DNA of 64,000 nucleotides. Origin: a virus (Duplodnaviria; Caudoviricetes). The position numbers and the translations under genes were made by a program. The stretch lies in IMG/VR virus record IMGVR_UViG_3300014167_000003, positions 9,998-73,997 of that record; one strand, 5' to 3'. Each line of letters starts with the position of its first letter. Within the stretch, counting starts at the first letter, position 1. This document shows, piece by piece, positions 4,325 to 25,940 of the stretch. Below the pieces are notes generated by a model that worked only from the letters and a program-made list of their open reading frames with translations, did not search any database and was not told the DNA's origin.

Positions 4325-4864
4325 TCAGTTGAGCGTGTCACCAGGGCCGCGCTCAGGCATCGGCTCAGCAACGGCAGGCAGCTCGGCCTGCTTCGCCTCG
4401 GCCTCCTCGGCCTTGGCGAGCGTCGCAGCCAGGGCAGCAGCCGCGTCCTCGCCCAGCTCGGCCCGCACCTTGGCGAGCACCTCTTCCGTGGTCTGCAGCT
4501 GCGCGAACTCTCCAGGCGCGCCCGTCTCCTTGCGGTCGACGAGGAGCCCGACAAGTCGAGCAGCCAGTTGCGTCGCCTGGATGGCCGCGCTCGTCTGTCC
4601 CAAGTCGCGCGCCAGCTTGCGGTCGTCGGCCAGATCCTGGAGCAAACTCTCAACCGTGATGCGTGTCCTGGTGCTCATCTGTCGCCTGATCTCCTGGATG
4701 CGGCGTTGCACTTCAGCATGCCTCAGCAGCCTGCTGGCATTCACCTCAAGGGCGCGTTGGGTTGTCGTGTTGTAGCCGGCCTCGGCGTAAGCTCTTGTCG
4801 CGTTCTGGTGTTTGACCCAGTTGCGGACGAACTTCTCGTGGCGGATGTTTTGCATCGCGGGCAT
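4325..4864 (-). CDS. terS: Terminase small subunit
   Basis: RHEKFV....NATRAYAEAGY....ASRLL....V...I HTH signature followed by ITVESLL.DL. Confidence 0.85.
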   Translation of the reverse strand: MPAMQNIRHEKFVRNWVKHQNATRAYAEAGYNTTTQRALEVNASRLLRHAEVQRRIQEIRRQMSTRTRITVESLLQDLADDRKLARDLGQTSAAIQATQLAARLVGLLVDRKETGAPGEFAQLQTTEEVLAKVRAELGEDAAAALAATLAKAEEAEAKQAELPAVAEPMPERGPGDTLN

Positions 4865-4905
4865 GGCGAGCACGCTACCACGCGCTGCGCGCTTTGCTCA
4901 AGGTG

Positions 4906-4919
4906 TGAGGCAGGGCTCA
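4906..4919. promoter_or_regulatory. Late-gene dyad upstream of terS
   Basis: TGAGG-CAGG-GCTCA. Confidence 0.65.
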
Positions 4920-5186
4920 GAGGTAGAGCCAGCAGGTGTAGGCGAGGAGGAAGGTGATGGTGATGAGCCAGCACACCGCTTCGCGGTGCAGCTCCTCATC
5001 GGTGCGTGGGCCGCAGGTCATGTGTGGGATCTCATGTCGTCTGAGCCGCGCGCGAGGAGAGCGATGCGCAAAACGCTTGTCAAGCCCACCAGGTACCGCG
5101 CTGATCGCGCTGTTCTTCTTATGTCCCATTCGTTCGTGTGCAAACAATGCGGGCGTTTCACTCGTTGCCGACGCAACCAATTAATT

Positions 5187-5200
5187 TGAGGACGGCCTCA
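5187..5200. promoter_or_regulatory. TGAGG-N4-CCTCA dyad in divergent intergenic region
   Basis: TGAGG-ACGG-CCTCA. Confidence 0.7.
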
Positions 5201-5243
5201 TTTCTTGCTGTTAACACGCGCCGAATATGGTAGTCTTTGCCAT

Positions 5244-5260
5244 GCCCAGATGGCCTGGGC
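5244..5260 (+). promoter_or_regulatory. Hairpin with ATGGC loop, copy 1
   Basis: GCCCAG-ATGGC-CTGGGC, upstream of ATG 5279. Confidence 0.7.
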
Positions 5261-5278
5261 GATACCTGGGAGAACACC

Positions 5279-5422
5279 ATGCGCAAACAATTCGTCGAGT
5301 GCTCCAGCCGCAAGCAGGCCGAGAAGGCGTGCCCGTGGGCAGAGAAGGTCGTCAAAGTCGAAGGCGGTTATTGGTGTTTTGAGAGCATCTCCGAGTGTGA
5401 AAGTTGGAAGAAGCAGAAGTAG
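5279..5422 (+). CDS. Small hypothetical protein
   Basis: GGAG RBS; MRKQFVECSSRKQAEKACPWA... Confidence 0.65.
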   Translation: MRKQFVECSSRKQAEKACPWAEKVVKVEGGYWCFESISECESWKKQK

Positions 5423-5433
5423 CGGCACCACAC

Positions 5434-5452
5434 GCCGATGATGGCCATCGGC
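5434..5452 (+). promoter_or_regulatory. Hairpin with ATGGC loop, copy 2
   Basis: GCCGATG-ATGGC-CATCGGC, upstream of ATG 5476. Confidence 0.7.
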
Positions 5453-5475
5453 AATTCAAACCTGAGAGGAACACC

Positions 5476-5688
5476 ATGTCGAAGATCACATCAGAGCCGG
5501 TTGCGGACGACCGCGTCATCGTTGGCGCCTCAGACGCCGTGTATGCCGAGTACAGCGCGCGCGCCGAGGAGCCGTTCACCGTCGCATACGCGTTCAACGA
5601 CGAGATCTATTCGGTTGAGGGCTACAACAGCCGCACTGCCGCTCTCGCCGCCGCAAAGGCCGCCGGCACGCGCGTGGAGGTGCTTTAA
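5476..5688 (+). CDS. Hypothetical protein
   Basis: GAGG RBS; TAATG coupling to recombinase. Confidence 0.65.
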   Translation: MSKITSEPVADDRVIVGASDAVYAEYSARAEEPFTVAYAFNDEIYSVEGYNSRTAALAAAKAAGTRVEVL

Positions 5689-6359
5689 TGCAGACCCTCG
5701 TCGCATACTACCGCGTCAGCACGCAGAAGCAGGGCCGCTCTGGCCTCGGCCTCGATGCACAGAAGGAGGCCGTGCTCCGCTTCGCCGAGCAGCACCGTTT
5801 GGCCATCTCGCACACGTTCATCGAGATCGAGACCGGCAAGGGCGCCGATGCATTGCACCAGCGTCCAGAATTGTCCAAGGCGCTCGATGCCGCGCGTGAG
5901 CACGGCGCCAAGATCGCCGTCGCCAAGCTCGACCGGCTCTCGCGTGATGTCCACTTCATCTCCGGCCTGATGGCGCAGCGCGTGCCGTTCGTCGTCACCG
6001 AACTCGGGCCCGACGTCGATCCCTTCATGCTCCACATCTACGCGGCGGTGGCGCAGAAGGAGGCGGCGCTCATCTCACAACGCACACGCGCGGCATTGCG
6101 GGCCGCCAAGAAGCGCGGCGTCAAGCTCGGCAACCCGAACCTCGCCGCCGCCAATAGGGCCGCCGGTGAGGCCAAGAGCGCCGTGGCGACGGCATTCGCG
6201 AAGAGCGTCAAGCCGTACATCGAACTCATCCAGGCGAAGGGCGTCACCTCGAACCGCGCCATTGCCGCCGAATTGAACCGGCTCAAGGTATCATCCGCGA
6301 CCGGCGCCGCGTGGTCCGACGTGCAGGTCGGCCGCGTCCTCAAACGGCTGGAGGCGTGA
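5688..6359 (+). CDS. Serine recombinase (resolvase/invertase family)
   Basis: YYRVSTQKQ catalytic Ser motif, AKLDRLSR, ISQRTRAAL; C-terminal HTH-like segment. Confidence 0.92.
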   Translation: MQTLVAYYRVSTQKQGRSGLGLDAQKEAVLRFAEQHRLAISHTFIEIETGKGADALHQRPELSKALDAAREHGAKIAVAKLDRLSRDVHFISGLMAQRVPFVVTELGPDVDPFMLHIYAAVAQKEAALISQRTRAALRAAKKRGVKLGNPNLAAANRAAGEAKSAVATAFAKSVKPYIELIQAKGVTSNRAIAAELNRLKVSSATGAAWSDVQVGRVLKRLEA

Positions 6360-15307: not shown

Positions 15308-16606
15308 ATGCCGAGCATCACCACCGAGATCTGCAAGCGCAAGGTCACCCAGCGCACCGACATCTACGACAACAAGTGCCGAGGCTTCAGCGTCCGCCTG
15401 TCGCCCACGGCGCCGGCCATGTTCGCCTTCAAGTACTACGACAAGGCGCTCGGCAAGCAGGTCAAGCTGACCCTGCAGCACTTCGACCCGATCAACTACA
15501 CCGTCGATAAGGCGCGCGCCGAGGCCTACCAGCTCAAGGCGAAGGCCGAGGCCGGCGTCGATCTCGCGCAGCAGAAGCGCGTCGCCACCACACAGCGCGC
15601 CAAGATCAGCGGCGTGACGTTCGAACAGATCGCCAAGGAGTACATCGACGCGATCAGCACCTTGGAAAAGAAGGCCGATGGCGAGCTGCGGCCGGTCAAG
15701 GAGAGCTGGAAGAACGACGAGGGTTACCTGAAGCGTCCACGCGCGGCGTGGGGCGCATGGGTCGCCTCCGAGGTCACCGACGATGATGTGATGGCTCTCC
15801 TGTTCTCCATCGACTCCGTGTCCAGCCGCAACCGGACCCGCTCCGTGCTCCACACGATGTTCAAGTGGGCGAAGCAGCCGCCGCGCAAGTACGTCACCAG
15901 CAACCCGTGCAGCGACCTGCCGAAGCGTGACAAGGAGTACAGCAAGGACCGCGCGCTCGACCGCGACGAGATCAAGAAGCTCTGGATCGGTCTCGACCAT
16001 CCCGACCTTCCGGCATCGCGGCCGGTGGCGCTGGCTCTCAAGCTGATCCTGTGCACGATGCTGCGCCCCGGCGAGGTGATCGTTGCCGAGCGGTCGTTCC
16101 TGAAGACGGTCGCCAAGGTGCAGGTCATCCAGTTGCCGCTGAAGGCCGTGAAGAAGCGCCGGGCGATCACCCAGCCGTTGACCGGCCTCGCACTGGCGCT
16201 GATCGCCGAGGCCAAGTCGAAGCACAACCACGACCTCCTGTTCATCGGCCGTAGCCACAAGACCGGTGACGCCGTGCCGATGAAGCGCAACACGCTGTCG
16301 CAGGCACTCGTTGGCAAGAAGGACAAGAAGGGCAAGGTGCTGCGTCAGGGCATCCTCGACTTCCTCAGGATGAAGAAGTTCACGCCGCACGATCTGCGGC
16401 GCACGGCGGCGACGTTGGCGGGTGACGCCGGCTTCGACGACAAGACCATCGGCCGTTGCCTCGACCACGCCGAGGAAGGCGCCGCCGATGTGACCGGCGT
16501 CTATAACCGCTCTGCCTACATTGAACCGCGTCGGCAGGTGCTCGCTGCGGTCGAGAGCCAGCTCTTGGAGATCCTCGGCGACAAGGCGCTGCCTCTCGCG
16601 GCCTGA
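15308..16606 (+). CDS. int: Tyrosine integrase with N-terminal arm-binding domain
   Basis: Catalytic R (MLRPGEV), HDLRRT, LDH, VYNRS. Confidence 0.95.
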   Translation: MPSITTEICKRKVTQRTDIYDNKCRGFSVRLSPTAPAMFAFKYYDKALGKQVKLTLQHFDPINYTVDKARAEAYQLKAKAEAGVDLAQQKRVATTQRAKISGVTFEQIAKEYIDAISTLEKKADGELRPVKESWKNDEGYLKRPRAAWGAWVASEVTDDDVMALLFSIDSVSSRNRTRSVLHTMFKWAKQPPRKYVTSNPCSDLPKRDKEYSKDRALDRDEIKKLWIGLDHPDLPASRPVALALKLILCTMLRPGEVIVAERSFLKTVAKVQVIQLPLKAVKKRRAITQPLTGLALALIAEAKSKHNHDLLFIGRSHKTGDAVPMKRNTLSQALVGKKDKKGKVLRQGILDFLRMKKFTPHDLRRTAATLAGDAGFDDKTIGRCLDHAEEGAADVTGVYNRSAYIEPRRQVLAAVESQLLEILGDKALPLAA

Positions 16607-16659: not shown

Positions 16660-16869
16660 TCAGACGGCGCGTTCGCGCGGCAACGCTTCCTGCCACGCGA
16701 CAACCTCGTCCTCGTACCAGTACTTGTGCTGGCGCCCGATGTAGACACCCCGAGGGAAACGGCCTTCCTTCTCCATGCGGATCATGGTCGACCTTCCCAA
16801 CGGCACCAGCTTCAACACCTGGCGACGGTCCAGCATCTTCCTCACTTCATCGACCATGACCGCACCCAT
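16660..16869 (-). CDS. AlpA-family excisionase/regulator
   Basis: LDRRQVL..VPLGRSTM.RMEKEGRFP....G....W...EV..W. Confidence 0.85.
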   Translation of the reverse strand: MGAVMVDEVRKMLDRRQVLKLVPLGRSTMIRMEKEGRFPRGVYIGRQHKYWYEDEVVAWQEALPRERAV

Positions 16870-18434: not shown

Positions 18435-18780
18435 ACTTGGTCCTCCGTTCGAGAATGGCGTCCAGTCGTCCCCGGATCGCTGCGATCTCGTTGCGCAGCG
18501 TCGGCTCTTGCTGCAGCCGCTCGTGGATGCGGCGGCAGGCATACATGATCGTGGTGTGGTCCTGGTTGAACTTGCGGCCGATGGCCGGATAAGACGACCG
18601 CGTCAGCTCCTTGCAGAGGTGGACCGCAACGTGGCGGACATTTACGAGGCTGGCGTCACGGTACTTCGCGAGCAACATCTCGCGGTCGATGCCGTAGTAG
18701 TCCGCGACAGCGTCCTGGATGTCGCGCATCTGCAGCGGCCACGTCGCCAGTTCGTGCAGGCTGAACCACGTCTCCTTCAT
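18370..18780 (-). CDS. Stand-alone DnaA domain IV (C-terminal HTH) protein
   Basis: IQDAVADYYG...L....R......RHVA.HL..ELT..SYPAIGRKFN.DHTTIMYA.RRI. Confidence 0.88.
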   Translation of the reverse strand: MKETWFSLHELATWPLQMRDIQDAVADYYGIDREMLLAKYRDASLVNVRHVAVHLCKELTRSSYPAIGRKFNQDHTTIMYACRRIHERLQQEPTLRNEIAAIRGRLDAILERRTKYVTDSQDEAAAARGQSAAEGV

Positions 18781-19709
18781 GTGGCGCCCTCGGCAATGGG
18801 TGCGGCGCCCGCCGCAGTGGGCTGATCAACGGGCGCCGCAGGCTCGGTGGCGGTTCCAACCTCCGAGCCCTCCGGCGACGACACAGCGGGGGCCGATGTC
18901 GCCGGGTTCTTGTTCTTCCGCGTGTCCACCGTCATCGCGGCGGCGATGGACGCATCAATGGCCTGACCGAAGCCCTCACCGCCAGGACCGCGCAGGCGGG
19001 CCGCCAGGCCCGGCGTGGCGCGCGTGTCCGAGACGACCTTCACGTCCTCGGCCTCCGGGAAGTCGTCGCGCGCGTAGATGCCGGCGATGATGTCAGGGCA
19101 ATACACCCGCGCCCAGTCGCGCACCATGGCGTAGAACATCTGCTGGTCCGGCTTCGTGTCCCACAGCGGCGAGCCCTTGCGCTTGCCGTACTCATTGAGC
19201 GGCGGGCGCAGGTTGGCCAGCGTGAACTGCTTGGCGCTGTCCTTCGGCGGCCACTCACGCGGCTCGGTCTCGCCCTTAAACGTCGCGTACACGAAGCAGA
19301 TCCGGTCGTCGCCGTCGCCCTCGTACCTGGCCCTGATGCGCTCCTTGATCGGCGCCCGCGCCTCGATGATCGAGTGGTAGAAGTTCGACATGTAGGCGAC
19401 CTGTTCGACGCCCTTGTTGACGACCAGGTACGTCTGCGACGCCAGCGTCAGCGGCGAGACGCCCAGCTCGTCCGCCTTGAGGATGATGCCCCAGCAGCCG
19501 CCGACGTTGCCCTGGAGCCAGGGCGGCAGCAGCGGCCCGGCGGTCGCCATCAGCTTCGCCGCCTCGGCCATCTGCAGCGCGTTGTCGAACCGCAGGCCAC
19601 CGACATGCTCGCCCATGGGGATGAGCGCGGTCTTCTCGGTCATCACGCGCTCGATCTTGCCCTCGGCGAGATCGCGCCTGGTCACCGGGCCATCGTTAAC
19701 TTCGGTCAT
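18777..19709 (-). CDS. recT: RecT-like single-strand annealing protein
   Basis: GN...C..I...A..LG.SP...A..TY.V; W...P.QM....R.WAR.Y.PD...GIY..DD; same operon as RecE-like exonuclease. Confidence 0.75.
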   Translation of the reverse strand: MTEVNDGPVTRRDLAEGKIERVMTEKTALIPMGEHVGGLRFDNALQMAEAAKLMATAGPLLPPWLQGNVGGCWGIILKADELGVSPLTLASQTYLVVNKGVEQVAYMSNFYHSIIEARAPIKERIRARYEGDGDDRICFVYATFKGETEPREWPPKDSAKQFTLANLRPPLNEYGKRKGSPLWDTKPDQQMFYAMVRDWARVYCPDIIAGIYARDDFPEAEDVKVVSDTRATPGLAARLRGPGGEGFGQAIDASIAAAMTVDTRKNKNPATSAPAVSSPEGSEVGTATEPAAPVDQPTAAGAAPIAEGAT

Positions 19710-20098
19710 GCACCGCTCCCAAAGATCCGTTCACGAAATTGGCTCAGCAGCTCCACCACCCGCTCATGCTGCCGTGGCTGCTCCAGCTGCATGTAGTCGG
19801 CGAGGCTGCTTTCGAGCACCTGGATGTTCTTGTCGATCCGCTCGACGATGGGTGTCTCGATGTCGCGTATCGGCTTCGGCGGGTGCTTGGCGTGCGCCGG
19901 GCACAGGTCGTGCTTGTTGTCCTTGCCGACCACCCAGCCGCGCTCGACGAGCTTGCGCTCGATCACCTCGGGCGGCAGGTCCGTCCTGGTGTTGCAGTTG
20001 ACCGTCGCGGTGACGCCGCAGCGGCAGCACTCGACCTTGTAGCGGCGCCGGGTGTCGCCGAGCGGGTTCACCATCCTGTCGAAATATCGGTTGGTCAT
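19706..20098 (-). CDS. Zinc-binding protein
   Basis: CCRC...GW......DLCP.H. Confidence 0.65.
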   Translation of the reverse strand: MTNRYFDRMVNPLGDTRRRYKVECCRCGVTATVNCNTRTDLPPEVIERKLVERGWVVGKDNKHDLCPAHAKHPPKPIRDIETPIVERIDKNIQVLESSLADYMQLEQPRQHERVVELLSQFRERIFGSGA

Positions 20099-21030
20099 TA
20101 TGTCCACCAGAACTGCGGGAACGGCTCCGGCCGCTCGCCCTGGCCGCGCCACATCAGCTTGTCGACGGTCTTCTCATCATGCGCCGCGTTCACCGCCTTG
20201 ATGATCAGCGCGATGAGGAGGAGCGGGTCGCGGCGCTTCTCGTCCGTTCGATGGAGGAGCACCTCGCGCAGCTTATAGAACGGGTCATTGATGGCGACGC
20301 CGGTCGGGTTTTCGAGCGTCTCGACCATGCGCTCGGCCAGCGGCTCGTCGTGGCTCGCCAGCATGTAGTAGGCGAACCCGAGGATCGCCGGGTTGATCAG
20401 CCGGCGCAGGTTCTTGTTGACGCGGGCCACCGCGCGAACCATCTCGGGGTGCGCCTTGTACGCCTCCTCGATCATGGCGTTCTCGACCCGGTTCTCGGCA
20501 TTGCGCGAATTGAGCATGGTGCCGCGCTGGTAATGGATCAGGTAGACGAGCGCGTGCGACGTCGATGCCTTATGGTGCGAGAGCCCGCTCACCGCGAGCA
20601 CGTCGGCGCCGGAGCGGCTCTTCCTGATGGTGTCGATGGTCGAGAACGCGTCGGGCTTGACGCCGAACACGATGATCACCCACACCCGCGCCTTGGAATA
20701 GATCACCGCCCAGAGCCGGTGCTGGCCGTCGAGCACGTCGCCGGTCGAGCCGATCTTGATGGTCTCGCCGTTGACCTTCCACAGCCCGTTCGACATCTGC
20801 CGCGCAATGCGCTTGGCATGCATGTCGGAGAGCGGCCGGTTGTTGTCGTTGCCTTCCAGGATGCGCGCGGCGAGGGTCTCGTCGATGTAGCCCTCCCACT
20901 GCCGCAGCCCGTTGCCGATGTCCTTGGTCGGCAACCCGAAGAAGGCAGCAGCATCGGCAATGGTCGGCGCCACGGGCGCCGCCGGCTCCGGCAGGTCACC
21001 CTTGGCCTTCAGCTTTTCGAGGAGAGACAT
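20098..21030 (-). CDS. ParB-like (DGQHR) domain protein
   Basis: NRPL...IARQM..G.W..NGETI....G.VLDGQHRL.AV....ID...R...D. Confidence 0.82.
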   Translation of the reverse strand: MSLLEKLKAKGDLPEPAAPVAPTIADAAAFFGLPTKDIGNGLRQWEGYIDETLAARILEGNDNNRPLSDMHAKRIARQMSNGLWKVNGETIKIGSTGDVLDGQHRLWAVIYSKARVWVIIVFGVKPDAFSTIDTIRKSRSGADVLAVSGLSHHKASTSHALVYLIHYQRGTMLNSRNAENRVENAMIEEAYKAHPEMVRAVARVNKNLRRLINPAILGFAYYMLASHDEPLAERMVETLENPTGVAINDPFYKLREVLLHRTDEKRRDPLLLIALIIKAVNAAHDEKTVDKLMWRGQGERPEPFPQFWWT

Positions 21031-21527
21031 CGCTGGAACTCCTGTAGCCACGACAATGCGGGAACGAGCTTGCGGTCGATCAGTCCGGTGCGGTCGAGCG
21101 CGACGGCAACGGCGGCAACATCGGACGCGAGCGGAAGGCTGGTCAGCTCCTCCAGGGCGGTCTTCAGGTGGCCCCAGATCGCCGCCTTCTCGTCGAACGT
21201 CTTTTTCCGGTCGTCGGGTGCCGCCGCACGCTTGCGCCTCTTCTTGGGCCTGTGCGCCACATGAGCGAGCGTGCGGTAGGCGCCGTCGACAGAGATCCGG
21301 CCGAGTTCGAGGTTGGCGATGATCGTCGGGTCGCCACGCAGGAGCACCTGGCGCGCCTTGACGACGCTCGACCGGTGCACCTCGAACTGGTCCGCCGCCT
21401 GCTGGATCGACACCGGAGGGTCAGCCGTCTCGTGGTGCCTGCCGTTCTCCGAGATGCCCAGGTTGCACACCCGCGCCGCCGCGAAGGCCCGGCGCGCAAT
21501 TTCTCCGTTGTCGGGTTTATCGAGCAT
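21009..21527 (-). CDS. HTH protein (ParB C-terminal-like)
   Basis: SIQQAADQFEVHRSSVVKARQVL..G...G.ISV..A; GAGG RBS right after repeat array. Confidence 0.7.
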   Translation of the reverse strand: MLDKPDNGEIARRAFAAARVCNLGISENGRHHETADPPVSIQQAADQFEVHRSSVVKARQVLLRGDPTIIANLELGRISVDGAYRTLAHVAHRPKKRRKRAAAPDDRKKTFDEKAAIWGHLKTALEELTSLPLASDVAAVAVALDRTGLIDRKLVPALSWLQEFQRCLSSKS

Positions 21528-21545
21528 TAGATCCACCTCACTGTA

Positions 21546-21903
21546 CGTTGCGATGCGTGGAGGCGAGGAGCGTGGCGATGCGATGCGAGGAGGCGCGAGG
21601 TGTCGAGCAGCTGTGCGTAGCGGTGGCAAATTTCGCAGACGTTGCGTTGCGTTGCGTTGCGGGGCGCCGCGAAGCGATGCGTTGCAGAGCGGGGCGCTGT
21701 GACGCGGAGCGCTGCACTGCGTGGATAAACTTGGTAGACGTTGCGTTGCGGGGCGACGCGAAGCGGTGCGATGCAGAGCGGCGCTCTGTGAGGCGGAGCG
21801 TTGCACTGCGGTGCGAGGTGAAGCGGAGCGGTGCGTCGTAAAATTCTGGTAGACGTTGCGAGGCGCTGCGGTGCGTGAGCGGCGTTGCATTGCGCTGTTG
21901 CGG
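21546..21903 (-). repeat. Array of four 5-nt-periodic CGC-NN units (candidate guide RNAs)
   Basis: - strand: degenerate unit A 21903-21856; unit B 21835-21741 (19 pentamers); unit C 21721-21642 (16); unit D 21622-21548 (15). Each ends CGCAA-CGT; linkers CTACCAGAATTTTA, CTACCAAGTTTAT, CTGCGAAATTT. Confidence 0.95.
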
Positions 21904-22398
21904 TCATCCCTGCGCTCCCTTGATCTTTTCGAGGAGGCTCGTGAGGTCGGGAACCGAGGAAGGCACAGCCCTGACCTTGACCGTTGCCGCCGCGTCCTCA
22001 ATAGCCGCCAGCCGCGTGTTGTTCGTCGAGGCGCGCAACTGGTCGCCCGTGGACAAGGCGTCGAACTGGACAATGTGGCCGAGGCGCTTGCGGCCCCGGC
22101 GCGCGCCGCGCGCGATCTTCTTCAGATCGGCATCGGAGTGCGCCACCAGGTCTTGGTCGTGCATCCGCTTCCAGCCGTAGCTGCGGAGCCGGCGAAAGTG
22201 CACCGGAGGGTCGCCGCGCTCCAACTCACGAAGCGCCGACCGCATCACATGACTGCCAGGGTCGACCGTATGCCCGAGCGTCTGACTGATCCGTTGGTCG
22301 GTGATCTCGTCGTTAACACCAACCAGCAGGACCGCAAGGCGGCGTGCCATTTCGGCGATCTCGGGGCGCTTGATGAACATGGGGCGCGGCGTTGTCAT
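21904..22398 (-). CDS. Accessory protein between RAMP gene and array (winged-helix-like N-terminus, basic helical C-terminus)
   Basis: Starts 3 nt after RAMP stop; MRSALREL...HFRRLRSYGWKR then helix KKIARGARRGRKRL. Confidence 0.75.
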   Translation of the reverse strand: MTTPRPMFIKRPEIAEMARRLAVLLVGVNDEITDQRISQTLGHTVDPGSHVMRSALRELERGDPPVHFRRLRSYGWKRMHDQDLVAHSDADLKKIARGARRGRKRLGHIVQFDALSTGDQLRASTNNTRLAAIEDAAATVKVRAVPSSVPDLTSLLEKIKGAQG

Positions 22399-22401
22399 GG
22401 T

Positions 22402-22959
22402 TTAGTTCCAGGTGAATTTGGTAGGTTTGAACCGACCGTTCAGCCCGCCCTTTTGCGGTTTGAAGCGGCCGATGCCGATGCTGGTGCCCGCCGTCTTCAA
22501 CACGCGTTCAAAGATCTCCTTGGTGACGGTGTCGTCCAAGATTGTGAACGCAGCGTCAGCCTCCCACTGCGGTATCACCGGGAAGGTACGCCAGACCCGC
22601 TTGCCGCTGCCCCTTACGCCATCGACGTTGCAGCTAACACGGACGGAGGCAACGGTGTCCTTCCTGGCGGCCAATACAACATCATGGTCGCAAATGACGT
22701 CGGCTTCGAAGAACTTGGTATAGGTCTTCTTGCCTTTGCCGGGGATTTGGATGCCGAGCTTTTTCGCGGAGGCGTCAAGACATTGCTTGAGGGCCATGGC
22801 CGGAATGTAGATAAAACCGTCCTCGTTGTAGTTGCACTTCTCCCGCCAAGTGCGCTTCTCGTGGTCGTCGTTCGTTTCGCCGCTCAATTTCGGCACTTCA
22901 TGCTGATGGGATTGAGAATACGGGGTAATGCTTTCAAGCCGAACAGTGACGTTACGCAT
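22402..22959 (-). CDS. Stand-alone Cas7-like RAMP (RRM-fold) protein
   Basis: First strand VRLESITPYS, YIPAMALKQCL, thumb-like GVRGSGKRV.R.FP.I..W, Gly-rich loop AG..IGIGRFKPQKGGLNGRF; GGAGG RBS; no other cas genes in window. Confidence 0.78.
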   Translation of the reverse strand: MRNVTVRLESITPYSQSHQHEVPKLSGETNDDHEKRTWREKCNYNEDGFIYIPAMALKQCLDASAKKLGIQIPGKGKKTYTKFFEADVICDHDVVLAARKDTVASVRVSCNVDGVRGSGKRVWRTFPVIPQWEADAAFTILDDTVTKEIFERVLKTAGTSIGIGRFKPQKGGLNGRFKPTKFTWN

Positions 22960-22978
22960 TGTCGTCCTCCATTATGGT

Positions 22979-23030
22979 CGTTGCGATGAGTTGCGGCGCG
23001 CAGCGCAGCTCTGCGATGCGTGGCGGGGCG
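22979..23030 (-). repeat. Fifth CGC-NN unit (10 pentamers) in the RAMP gene leader
   Basis: - strand CGCCC CGCCA CGCAT CGCAG AGCTG CGCTG CGCGC CGCAA CTCAT CGCAA, flanked on both sides by CGACCAT. Confidence 0.92.
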
Positions 23031-23039
23031 GAATGGTCG

Positions 23040-23969
23040 CTACGCTGCCTCCCGCAGGTGAAGTTTGAGCCGCTCGTCGATCTGATCCCGCCGCCACTGC
23101 GCCAGATCGATGAACTCCGCGTCCGCGCGGTCGTCGCCGGGCCCCGGCCAGTGGCCGTTCGACAAGCAGTCCGCGAACGTTCGCAACGCGGCGCGGTTCA
23201 TCTTGGCGCCGCGCGCGATGTCCTCATCGCGAAGCGTCGTCACCCGCACGCAATGCGGCGGCGTCTTCTCGACCCAGATGAGGCTGAATGAGGTGGCCTC
23301 CATGTCGAGCGCCTTGGCGCCTTCGAACACGAGACCGGCTTGCTGGCAGTAGCCGTAGTTGCCGAGAGACGCCTGCAGGTCGCGGTACACCACGCTCGTT
23401 GTCGTCTTGAGATCGCCGAAGTCGCCGCTGTCGCTCGGGATCACATCGGGCCGCGCCTTGAGCCAGATGCCGGTCTCCTGATCCTTCCAGATCATCGAGC
23501 GCTCGATCTGGCCGTTGAGGATGCCGCTCTGCACGAGCGGGTTGGCGCCGAGAGCCAGCGCCATGCCCTTGATGGCGTCGATCATGCTGTTCGTCAGGAC
23601 GGTCTTGCCGGCGCGCTGCTGGGCCCGCTTCCACTCGCGGCAGGCCTTCCTGTTGCCGTGCCAGGCGGCGCCATCGAGCCAGTCCGGCTGCACCGCGAAC
23701 TGGTCGCTGAAGCCGACCTCGCCGCAGATCAAAAAATGTGCCGCCCGGCCGAGGACGAATGCCTCGTTGTCGTCCTCGACGATGCGCTCCGGGTTGATGC
23801 CGCAGCGGGCCCAGGCGTGTGCCGGGCTCTTGTCCCAGAGCACCCGGAGCGGCGACGACGACACCGATGGGCCGACGCAAAGATCACCGTGGTACTGGGC
23901 CAGCGGGATGCCAGCGTACAGGCCGGCAACACCGATGCGTTCGCCGTTCCAGGGAATTGATCGGATCAT
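23040..23969 (-). CDS. RecE/exonuclease VIII-like PD-(D/E)XK nuclease (DUF3799-like)
   Basis: YH....VSSS.L....SPAH, GRAAH, E.S..W.D.ETG...KARPD...DLKTT, Y..Q. Confidence 0.88.
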   Translation of the reverse strand: MIRSIPWNGERIGVAGLYAGIPLAQYHGDLCVGPSVSSSPLRVLWDKSPAHAWARCGINPERIVEDDNEAFVLGRAAHFLICGEVGFSDQFAVQPDWLDGAAWHGNRKACREWKRAQQRAGKTVLTNSMIDAIKGMALALGANPLVQSGILNGQIERSMIWKDQETGIWLKARPDVIPSDSGDFGDLKTTTSVVYRDLQASLGNYGYCQQAGLVFEGAKALDMEATSFSLIWVEKTPPHCVRVTTLRDEDIARGAKMNRAALRTFADCLSNGHWPGPGDDRADAEFIDLAQWRRDQIDERLKLHLREAA

Positions 23970-24082
23970 GGTGGGGCTCGGTGATGCGGGTGTTTTCGAG
24001 GCGCAATTTCTCGCGCCGCGAGGTGAGGCGTTTCAAGCAAAATATTTGCTGTTAGATCCGTTAGATCGAGGCGTTCGGCGCA

Positions 24083-24102
24083 CTAACGGCGCGCCGTGTT
24101 AG
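24083..24102. promoter_or_regulatory. CTAAC-N10-GTTAG dyad with palindromic core in the main divergent control region
   Basis: Core ACGGCGCGCCGT 24086-24097; more TAAC/GTTA half-sites to 24266; perfect TTGACA at 24301. Confidence 0.55.
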
Positions 24103-24432
24103 CCCGTTCGCGGTGTTAACTCGCGATACAGAACGCAGGGAGCCTACGGCTCCTGCTATTCTGGTATTTTGTTATTACTGAGCCGCGCGTAGCACGAGCC
24201 ATGCCAACTCTCCCCGTGTTAGCTAATTTTTTTCTTGCTAACGGAGGCTACGCCGAAATTTCTAACGCGTGTCATCGCGGTGTCACCTTGGGAACACCAA
24301 TTGACAATTTATTTTTTCAGCATTGAGTCGCCTGCGGAAATTGCCTCAAAGGATCGATCACCGATCTTCTAGTACCTTGACGAAGGTTTGAAACCTTTCG
24401 CAGTCATTGCGTCCTCAACCACGGAGGACACC

Positions 24433-24807
24433 ATGGCCAAGGACGCAAACACCAACGAGCCGAGCGACGAGGACGTCAACGCCGCCGTCGACAACATCGA
24501 GAAAAACCTCGACGACCTTCTCAAGGAAAAGATGGCCTACATGTCGCGGGCCAAGCGCATCCGCGACCAGATCGGCGTCGAATACGACCACGCCGTGAAC
24601 CACGGCATCAGCAAGAAGCTCCTCAAGTCCATCATCAAGGAACGCGAACTGCACCGGAAGATCACGGCGCTGTCCGCCGACCTGGAGTTCGACGAGGCGG
24701 CCGAGCGCAAGATGCTGCTCGCGAAGCTCGGCGACTTCGCGGACACGCCGCTCGGCCAGGCGGCGCTGAACAGCGGCGAGCACACGCTCCGTAGCGTGGG
24801 TGCGTGA
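24433..24807 (+). CDS. GapR/DUF2312-like DNA-binding protein
   Basis: GGAGG RBS; helical IRDQI..EY..A...G.SKK.L..II.ER and DTPLG.AA tail. Confidence 0.65.
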   Translation: MAKDANTNEPSDEDVNAAVDNIEKNLDDLLKEKMAYMSRAKRIRDQIGVEYDHAVNHGISKKLLKSIIKERELHRKITALSADLEFDEAAERKMLLAKLGDFADTPLGQAALNSGEHTLRSVGA

Positions 24808-25940
24808 TGAACGGTGAAGCAGACCAAGCATACGGTAGCCTTGTCGAAGGCGTCTTCATCGCCGGCTTCACGCTGGAGCGCGCGTTTCAAAAGCTGGAAT
24901 GGCTGCTCACCGACGCCCGCTGGAAGACGGTCGGCGGCGGGTACGAGGACGTCAACCAGTTCCTCGACACCATCAAGCTCGACCAGTTCAAGATCATCGC
25001 CGAGCAGCGCAAGAAGATCGCGGCGGTGATCAAGAAGCTGGAACCGAAGGCGTCGAACGTCCAGATCGCCAAGGTGGTCGGTGTCAGCGACGAGACGATC
25101 CGTCGCGACACCACAAATGTGGAGGCCGGGAAGAAAGACACCAAGCAAACCAAGGCAACGCCCAAGGCTGAGACCACAAATGTGGCACTTGCTCTCACGG
25201 GCGCCGCCGCAGCGGCGACCGTCATCAGCAAGGCGGCCAAGGACGAGCGCAAGGCGGCGAAGGAGCAGGCGCGCGAGGCCGCCATCGCCGAGAACCTCAA
25301 GGTGCTGCCGGCGGTCAGCGACCGTTTCCGGCTGCTGTGCTCCGATCTCGCCACCGCCGACATCGCGCCCGGCTCCATCGACTGCATCGTCACGGACCCG
25401 CCGTACCCGGAGGAGTTTCTGCCGGTGTTCGCCACGCTCGCGTGGAAGGCGGCGATGTGGCTCAAGCCGGGCGGCTCCATGCTGGTGATGAGCGGGCACA
25501 TGTACCTGCCGCAGGTGCTTGCTCACCTGACCCACGCGCCTGGTCTCAACTATCACTGGACGTTGGCCTACCTGACGCCCGGCGGGCAGGCGGCGCAGAT
25601 GTTCCCGCGCAAGGTGAACACGTTCTGGAAGCCGGTGTTCTGGCTCGTGAAGGGTGAGTACAGCGGCGACTGGGTCGGCGACGTCACGCGGTCGGACGTC
25701 AACGACAACGACAAGCGCTTCCACCACTGGGGCCAGTCCGAGAGCGGCATGGCCGATCTCATCGGCCGCATCTCGATGCCGGGCCAGACCATCCTCGATC
25801 CGTTCTGCGGCGGCGGCACCACGGGCGTGGTCGCTGTCCAGATGGACCGGAAATTTATCGGCATCGACGTCAGCGAGCAGGCCATCGCAACAACCGCGTC
25901 CAGGCTCCACGAGGTGGCAAATGCAGCAATGGTGGCCTGA
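24807..25940 (+). CDS. N6-A/N4-C DNA methyltransferase (beta order) with N-terminal HTH
   Basis: IVTDPPY precedes ILDPFCGGGTTG; SNVQIAKVVGVSDETIRRD HTH. Confidence 0.92.
   Translation: MNGEADQAYGSLVEGVFIAGFTLERAFQKLEWLLTDARWKTVGGGYEDVNQFLDTIKLDQFKIIAEQRKKIAAVIKKLEPKASNVQIAKVVGVSDETIRRDTTNVEAGKKDTKQTKATPKAETTNVALALTGAAAAATVISKAAKDERKAAKEQAREAAIAENLKVLPAVSDRFRLLCSDLATADIAPGSIDCIVTDPPYPEEFLPVFATLAWKAAMWLKPGGSMLVMSGHMYLPQVLAHLTHAPGLNYHWTLAYLTPGGQAAQMFPRKVNTFWKPVFWLVKGEYSGDWVGDVTRSDVNDNDKRFHHWGQSESGMADLIGRISMPGQTILDPFCGGGTTGVVAVQMDRKFIGIDVSEQAIATTASRLHEVANAAMVA

What the first reader, a model, noticed from the sequence alone, without database searches (positions are those of the whole stretch)
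21546..23030. Candidate RNA-guided system: lone Cas7-like RAMP gene plus 5-nt periodic CGC-NN arrays
Seen: a 185-aa ORF (22402-22959) with RAMP hallmarks (N-terminal L.S.TP strand, YIP...LK, Gly-rich IGIGRF..GG.NGRF loop) and no other cas genes. It is flanked by five units of strict 5-nt period, a near-constant triplet (CGC; variants TGC, CAC, CTC, AGC) alternating with a free dinucleotide. Units hold 10-19 pentamers (unit A is degenerate), end in CGCAA-CG and are separated by short linkers, several containing ACCA. A wHTH-like gene lies between RAMP and array. Knowledge: Cas7-family RAMPs polymerise on guide RNA with a fixed nucleotide step. I recall recently reported phage VIPR systems with GGY/NN guides (not verifiable here). 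Inference: each subunit binds one CGC and presents NN for gapped target pairing, making this a CGC-type variant that could silence competing phages or regulate genes.
Basis: partly seen in the sequence, partly recalled or inferred. Interest (0 to 1): 0.97.

Follow-up and report, generated by a model that had tools for sequence, protein, structure and literature searches.

The report
Phage VIPR system with CGC guides
This temperate phage carries a VIPR system, the CRISPR-related RNA-guided DNA silencer described in 2026 preprints; its five guide RNAs use CGC instead of the published GGY as the fixed part of each five-base unit, so it is an untested variant of a known kind.

Summary
ORF 22402-22959(-) is a Vipr protein: its clade profile finds SUSP1 Vipr as the only PDB hit (E 9.8e-12), and the model has a RAMP fold (Z 12.3 to Csm3). 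Five CGC-NN tracts lie on the gene's strand, one upstream and four behind a winged-helix-like vap gene. There is no Cas1 in the complete 74-kb phage. About 121 of 129 homologous loci carry period-5 arrays (CGC 79, CAC 11, CTC 10, GGC 9, GAC 8).

Two results go beyond the text of the papers I could read. (1) The one-base-skip code holds for CGC guides: in three sibling phages, seven guides match sibling genes (up to 26/28), all wobble-aligned. (2) G-loop R165 (SUSP1 D177) covaries with the triplet's middle base: Arg in 56/57 xGx loci, non-Arg in 14/15 xAx loci. Tree support for this is suggestive only.

No target was found for this window's own guides, and array transcription was not shown. Non-GGY VIPR arrays are already reported in silico (YNNNG class; CAC/NN, GAC/NN), and this scan found CGC-type VIPRs before on other DNA. 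Verdict: a genuine but modestly novel variant of a known system.

The parts
22402..22959 (-). vipr gene: 185-aa stand-alone RAMP (Vipr); thumb about 108-127, G-loop 158-177 with R165/F166/K167 = SUSP1 D177/W178/R179
   Evidence: hhalign 97.9%, 168 columns vs SUSP1 Vipr; E 9.8e-12; both in phrog_4652; pLDDT 95, RAMP fold
21904..22398 (-). vap (accessory) gene, 158-164 aa, N-terminal winged-helix-like domain plus long helices; starts 3 nt after the vipr stop
   Evidence: its homologues found in loci L001-L003, L008, L129 all lie directly behind vipr; Z 7.8 MAGE-G1, 6.7 PurR; no detectable similarity to SUSP1 Vap1
22981..23030 (-). vrRNA unit E, 10 CGC-NN pentamers in the vipr leader, bracketed by CGACCAT repeats
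21856..21902 (-). vrRNA unit A, degenerate (two register breaks)
21741..21835 (-). vrRNA unit B, 19 pentamers; its last 14 are paralogous to unit C
21642..21721 (-). vrRNA unit C, 16 pentamers
21548..21622 (-). vrRNA unit D, 15 pentamers, ending just before the RBS of the next gene
21836..21855 (-). linker A/B (CGTCTA-type); similar linkers at 21722-21740 and 21623-21641; candidate 3' tails or processing sites
   Evidence: similar linkers in L001-L003; no stable fold, no Rfam family
23040..23969 (-). context, not part of the system: PD-(D/E)XK exonuclease (DUF3799). RecT at 18777-19709(-), excisionase 16660-16869(-) and integrase 15308-16606(+) mark the early region of a temperate phage

Best explanation
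This is a functional VIPR system of a complete 74-kb temperate phage (65% GC), from a large Vipr clade whose guides use an S-N-C triplet, here CGC. Inferred from SUSP1: the tracts are transcribed in the phage's early operon into short vrRNAs. Vipr polymerises one protomer per pentamer, buries each CGC and presents each NN. The NNs pair with double-stranded DNA, skipping every third target base (usually the codon wobble base). The filament, helped by the winged-helix Vap, blocks transcription of genes of competing related phages or prophages. The change from GG to CG goes with changed reading residues: SUSP1 H17, D177 and R138 are S17, R165 and F126 here, and R165 probably reads the middle G. 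SHOWN here: Vipr homology, RAMP fold, array anatomy, co-occurrence and strand, the 1-nt skip for CGC guides of relatives, and residue-triplet covariation. INFERRED: transcription, binding, repression, the role of Vap and the targets of this locus.
For: Sole PDB hit is SUSP1 Vipr, E 9.8e-12; hhalign 97.9% over 168 columns; same PHROG as SUSP1 Vipr. Foldseek gives type VII Cas7/Csm3 at E 2e-8, VIA Z 12.3. About 121/129 homologous loci have arrays; of 82 representatives picked for having a sense-strand array, 77 reach score 12 on the sense strand against 8 on the antisense strand. In paralogous units B and C, triplets differ at 1/42 positions and NN at 6/28 (Fisher p 0.014). Skip test on the 299 guides of up to 30 units: scores of 16 or more number 7 for skip 1, against 0, 0 and 2 for skips 0, 2 and 3, and 2 and 0 in shuffles. 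Best hit is 26/28, score 24, against at most 17 in shuffles. All 7 hits are wobble-aligned in ORFs; 5 of them, checked against own and sibling records, match a sibling better than self. R165 covariation.
Against: No target above chance for units A-E in the phage's own genome, 4.2 Mb of relatives, 50 genomes or records, IMG/VR or metagenome scans. Unit A is degenerate. No structured 3' tail like the SUSP1 pseudoknot was found. The skip evidence comes mostly from one sibling group (L039/L042/L046; 58-60% Vipr identity to this protein). R165 covariation is not significant on well-supported branches alone (3 pairs).
Confidence: 0.88

Rival explanations
1. A VIPR locus that is decaying or mainly regulatory: the protein binds the tracts, but this phage's guides no longer address a foreign target. 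Binding to unit E in the vipr leader and to unit D before the next RBS would autoregulate translation of the operon.
For: No target found. Unit A is broken; C is a partial duplicate of B with four terminal CGCAA units. E and D end about 10 nt before ribosome-binding sites.
Against: vipr and vap are intact, with the clade's invariant residues. Position 3 is C in 60/60 pentamers and NN diverge faster than triplets. An upstream unit plus a downstream array is the normal SUSP1 layout. Missing targets are expected for an uncultured phage.
Confidence: 0.07
2. The clade targets RNA or uses a different pairing geometry from SUSP1, or acts as a homing-like allele-exclusion device with the neighbouring RecT and exonuclease rather than as a plain repressor.
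For: Structural neighbours are the RNA-targeting type III/VII Cas7 proteins. In siblings L039/L042/L046 the guides sit 30-300 nt from the allele they match, one in frame inside an SNF2 gene. RecT/DUF3799 lie near vipr in 5-12 loci.
Against: Matches lie on both coding and template strands (4 sense, 3 antisense), which fits DNA targeting. The skip is 1, as in SUSP1. The Vipr structures postdate the fold library. This window's guides show no local match (z at most 0). No nuclease domain was seen in Vap.
Confidence: 0.04
3. The pentamers are a microsatellite or coding repeat, unrelated to the RAMP gene.
For: Open frames run through the tracts.
Against: Period 5 with free NN; sense-strand bias; presence beside about 94% of homologues across many phyla; the triplet covaries with the protein; decoded guides match real genes.
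Confidence: 0.01

Closest known systems
VIPR type II of Escherichia phage SUSP1 (bioRxiv 10.64898/2026.04.26.720920, .720927; PDB 36PP)
   Same: Homologous ~20-kDa stand-alone RAMP; two-gene vipr-vap operon; one guide upstream and an array downstream; pentamers of fixed triplet plus NN with a pyrimidine at position 3; 1-nt skip on wobble positions; relatives' vipr genes among the targets.
   Different: CGC rather than GGY; G1/G2-reading residues replaced (H17 to S17, D177 to R165, R138 to F126); about 20% identity; Vap not detectably related to Vap1; guides up to 19 units (published 9-16); 19-20-nt linkers with no pseudoknot tail found; temperate GC-rich phage.
Non-canonical VIPR arrays reported in silico (YNNNG/NNNGG/NNNNG in 10.64898/2026.04.26.720920 Methods; GAC/NN, CAC/NN and others in 10.64898/2026.10.21.760802)
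   Same: CGC/NN is an instance of YNNNG; CAC and GAC arrays occur in this same protein clade.
   Different: The passages read name no CGC system, do not test the skip rule for non-GGY guides and give no residue-triplet code. Figures and supplementary data were not available to check.
Class 1 CRISPR Cas7-group RAMPs (Csm3, type VII Cas7, Csf2)
   Same: RRM core, thumb and G-loop; polymerisation on a guide RNA.
   Different: No CRISPR repeats or Cas1; 5-nt step with gapped pairing instead of 6-nt step with contiguous pairing.

Membership tests
VIPR | Vipr protein: stand-alone RAMP homologous to described Viprs | tested here: met
VIPR | Minimal locus (vipr plus vap), no CRISPR array or cas operon | tested here: met
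   (no Cas1 in the complete genome)
VIPR | Phage or provirus location | tested here: met
   complete virus record with terminal repeats, integrase and excisionase
VIPR | Tandem pentamers of fixed triplet plus variable NN flanking vipr (GGY or a related consensus) | tested here: met
   CGC/NN fits the YNNNG class of the paper's Methods
VIPR (canonical GGY, SUSP1-like type II) | GGY triplet and its reading residues H17, D177, R138 | tested here: not met
   CGC; S17, R165, F126
VIPR | 1-nt skip target code | tested here: inconclusive
   met for CGC guides of relatives; no target found for this window's guides
VIPR | vrRNAs expressed and bound by Vipr | not testable with these tools
   only one RNA run holds the region, as contigs, none over the arrays
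VIPR | Structured 3' tail | tested here: inconclusive
   conserved CGCAA-CG end and short linkers, but no stable fold or Rfam match
VIPR types I-VII | Assignment by Vipr phylogeny and vap family | not testable with these tools
   the paper's data files are not held; a DNA-binding-type vap would fit types II, VI or VII
Class 1 CRISPR-Cas | CRISPR array and multi-gene cas operon | tested here: not met

The most novel reading that the evidence does not exclude
This Vipr clade has a swappable protein-RNA code: the G-loop residue at 165 sets the middle base of the scaffold (Arg for G; Gln, Phe, Val or Ser for A), and this changed repeatedly. The resulting VIPR pairs would be mutually orthogonal, letting phages escape hijacking by rivals' guides. 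In some members guides sit beside, or in frame inside, the allele they attack in siblings, like homing elements, which hints at how guides are acquired.
Probability: 0.35. Interest if true: 0.7.

Novelty: new variant of a known kind. Interest (0 to 1): 0.4.

Why it matters
VIPR is a minimal programmable DNA-binding platform, and structures and target tests exist only for GGY systems. A CGC clade of more than 1,800 proteins that keeps the skip code, with a candidate one-residue switch for scaffold specificity, offers orthogonal tools and a direct test of how the protein reads its guide. The locus itself is one of many examples.

Tried and rejected
Pfam gave nothing for Vipr or Vap.

Target searches for the window's guides were all at chance level: own genome and loci, 60 fetched pieces of related phages, unmasked arrays for guide-against-guide targeting, 50 genomes or records with 3 mismatches (3 hits against 2 in the control), IMG/VR exact scans and a metagenome scan (63 hits, none extending beyond 27/38). 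L138 (21 of the first 22 positions of D) is expected by chance in a library of that size. The peptide-like antisense reading of B/C matched no protein gene.

General self-targeting is not enriched. Residues tied to triplet position 1 (C versus G) follow the tree and are not independent. No sigma-70 promoter was found, no Rfam family or ribozyme, and no unusual folding.

One wetland metatranscriptome holds three tiny identical contigs, one inside vap and none on the arrays; this shows neither expression nor its absence. The second 185-aa gene in L129 is not a vipr duplicate. The genes downstream of the array are not conserved near homologues and are left out of the system. Complex prediction was not run. 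One search failed and was rerun.

Full report
Observation. The window is part of a complete 73,997-bp phage record with terminal repeats. Integrase, excisionase, RecT and a DUF3799 exonuclease place the locus in the early region of a temperate phage. On the minus strand lie a 185-aa ORF (22402-22959), a 164-aa ORF (21904-22398) starting 3 nt after its stop, one pentamer tract upstream (E) and four downstream (A-D). In 60 intact pentamers the third base is always C, the triplet is CGC in 44, and 15 of 16 dinucleotides occur. Phased runs hold up to 14 exact CGC, against at most 5 in shuffled windows. These are the only such tracts in the genome.

The protein. The AlphaFold model (pLDDT 95) matches Cas7-group RAMPs: Foldseek E 2e-8 to type VII Cas7 and Z 12.3, rmsd 2.4 over 141 residues to Csm3. 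These structure libraries predate the Vipr entries. By sequence, the best PDB hit is SUSP1 Vipr (E 0.013 single), and with a 137-sequence profile it is the only hit, E 9.8e-12. hhalign against the SUSP1 protein gives 97.9% over 168 columns, and both fall in phrog_4652. The family is large: 1,865 hits and 1,129 clusters at 50% identity. There is no Cas1 in the genome.

The accessory gene. It has about a dozen close homologues; those located in fetched loci lie directly behind vipr. Its N-terminal 80 residues resemble winged-helix domains at middling Z of 6.7-7.8. It is not detectably related to SUSP1 Vap1. A DNA-binding role is an inference.

Co-occurrence. About 121 of 129 loci carry period-5 arrays. 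The dominant sense-strand triplet is CGC 79, CAC 11, CTC 10, GGC 9, GAC 8. Among 82 representatives, chosen from loci with a sense-strand call, 77 have a score-12 array on the vipr strand and 8 on the other. Canonical GGC arrays occur inside the same clade, which fixes strand and register. Units B and C are paralogues: triplets differ at 1/42 positions, NN at 6/28 (p 0.014), as expected of a fixed scaffold with a variable code.

Skip rule. The 299 decoded guides of up to 30 units were scanned against 2 Mb of loci at skips 0-3. Scores of 16 or more: 7 at skip 1; 0, 0 and 2 at skips 0, 2 and 3; 2 and 0 in shuffles. On 2.4 Mb of related phage DNA the best skip-1 hit was 26/28 (score 24; shuffles at most 17; the high skip-3 scores were unmasked own arrays). 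The seven hits come from CGC guides of three sibling phages and fall in an SNF2 helicase, small neighbouring genes and the vipr G-loop. All seven place the skipped base on the third codon position, four sense and three antisense. Five match a sibling better than self, for example 26/28 versus 21/28 and 22/24 versus 16/24. This agrees with the published code and with the relative-targeting and self-avoidance reported for GGY guides. Because the evidence comes from one sibling group, it supports the clade rather than this locus. The window's own guides have no target above chance in any search.

Reading residues. SUSP1 reads G1 with H17 and D177, G2 with R138 and W178, and Y3 with a pocket including R179. 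Here these are S17, R165, F126, F166 and K167. Across 82 representatives, column 165 is the strongest correlate of the triplet's middle base: Arg in 56/57 G loci, non-Arg in 14/15 A loci, mixed in T loci (7 of 10 Arg). On a tree built without that column, each trait changes 10 times. Ten independent pairs on all branches give 7-8 concordant and 0 discordant, and column 165 ranks first of all columns (7.3 versus 4.2 for the next). On starred branches only three pairs remain (2 concordant, 0 discordant), which is not significant. I infer that R165 took over G2 reading after loss of the thumb arginine. This is a testable lead, not a shown contact.

Mechanism. By homology to SUSP1, the tracts give short RNAs on which Vipr forms a filament, one protomer per pentamer, with NN pairing to dsDNA at a one-base skip. 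The result is transcriptional silencing of competing phages, aided by Vap. Expression, binding and repression were not testable here.

Comparison and verdict. It works like VIPR and meets the membership features that could be tested, except the canonical GGY scaffold. The founding paper already lists YNNNG, NNNGG and NNNNG alternatives, of which CGC/NN is a case, and a second preprint reports CAC/NN and GAC/NN arrays with Vipr-like proteins. Earlier notes of this scan describe CGC-type VIPRs in other genomes. A type cannot be assigned. Verdict: a real, experimentally uncharacterised variant of a known kind; interest 0.4.

Noticed in passing
L039:2224-2301 (ORF 1470-2849), L042:5199-5251 (ORF 4432-5799), L046:5429-5481: A CGC-NN guide array lies in frame inside an SNF2-family helicase gene in three sibling phages; the L039 guide matches the helicase sequence just upstream in L042 (26/28) better than in itself (21/28).
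   Followed up: partly
L039 (1364, 2867, 4837, 5285), L042 (6811), L046 (4569, 6038, 6105): Guides are scattered between genes and sit 30-300 nt from the homologous site they match, a homing-endonuclease-like layout that may reflect local guide acquisition. Not seen for the window's guides.
   Followed up: partly
L039:1293-1461: The guide behind vipr encodes the vipr G-loop with a TC-x serine codon while the phage's own gene has AGC serine: a synonymous change that a wobble-skipping guide cannot tolerate, possibly self-avoidance.
   Followed up: no
L047:4595-4987, L054:3641-3988, L070:5170-5507: Very long unbroken pentamer runs of 68-79 units, far beyond the published 9-16.
   Followed up: no
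L052:8059-8337: A GGC-type array lies 3.5 kb from a vipr whose adjacent array is CGC-type: two scaffold types in one locus. My tally counted L052 as GGC.
   Followed up: no
L125:2128-2220: An array on the strand opposite to vipr, besides two on the sense strand.
   Followed up: no
window 20098-21030(-) and 21009-21530(-): A DGQHR-motif (ParB/DndB-like) gene (phrog_5931) and an HTH-like gene follow the array in the same operon; not conserved beside other vipr homologues.
   Followed up: partly
window 24804-25940(+): DNA methyltransferase (N6/N4) with an N-terminal HTH extension, facing away from the VIPR operon across an AT-richer control region near 23970-24390.
   Followed up: no
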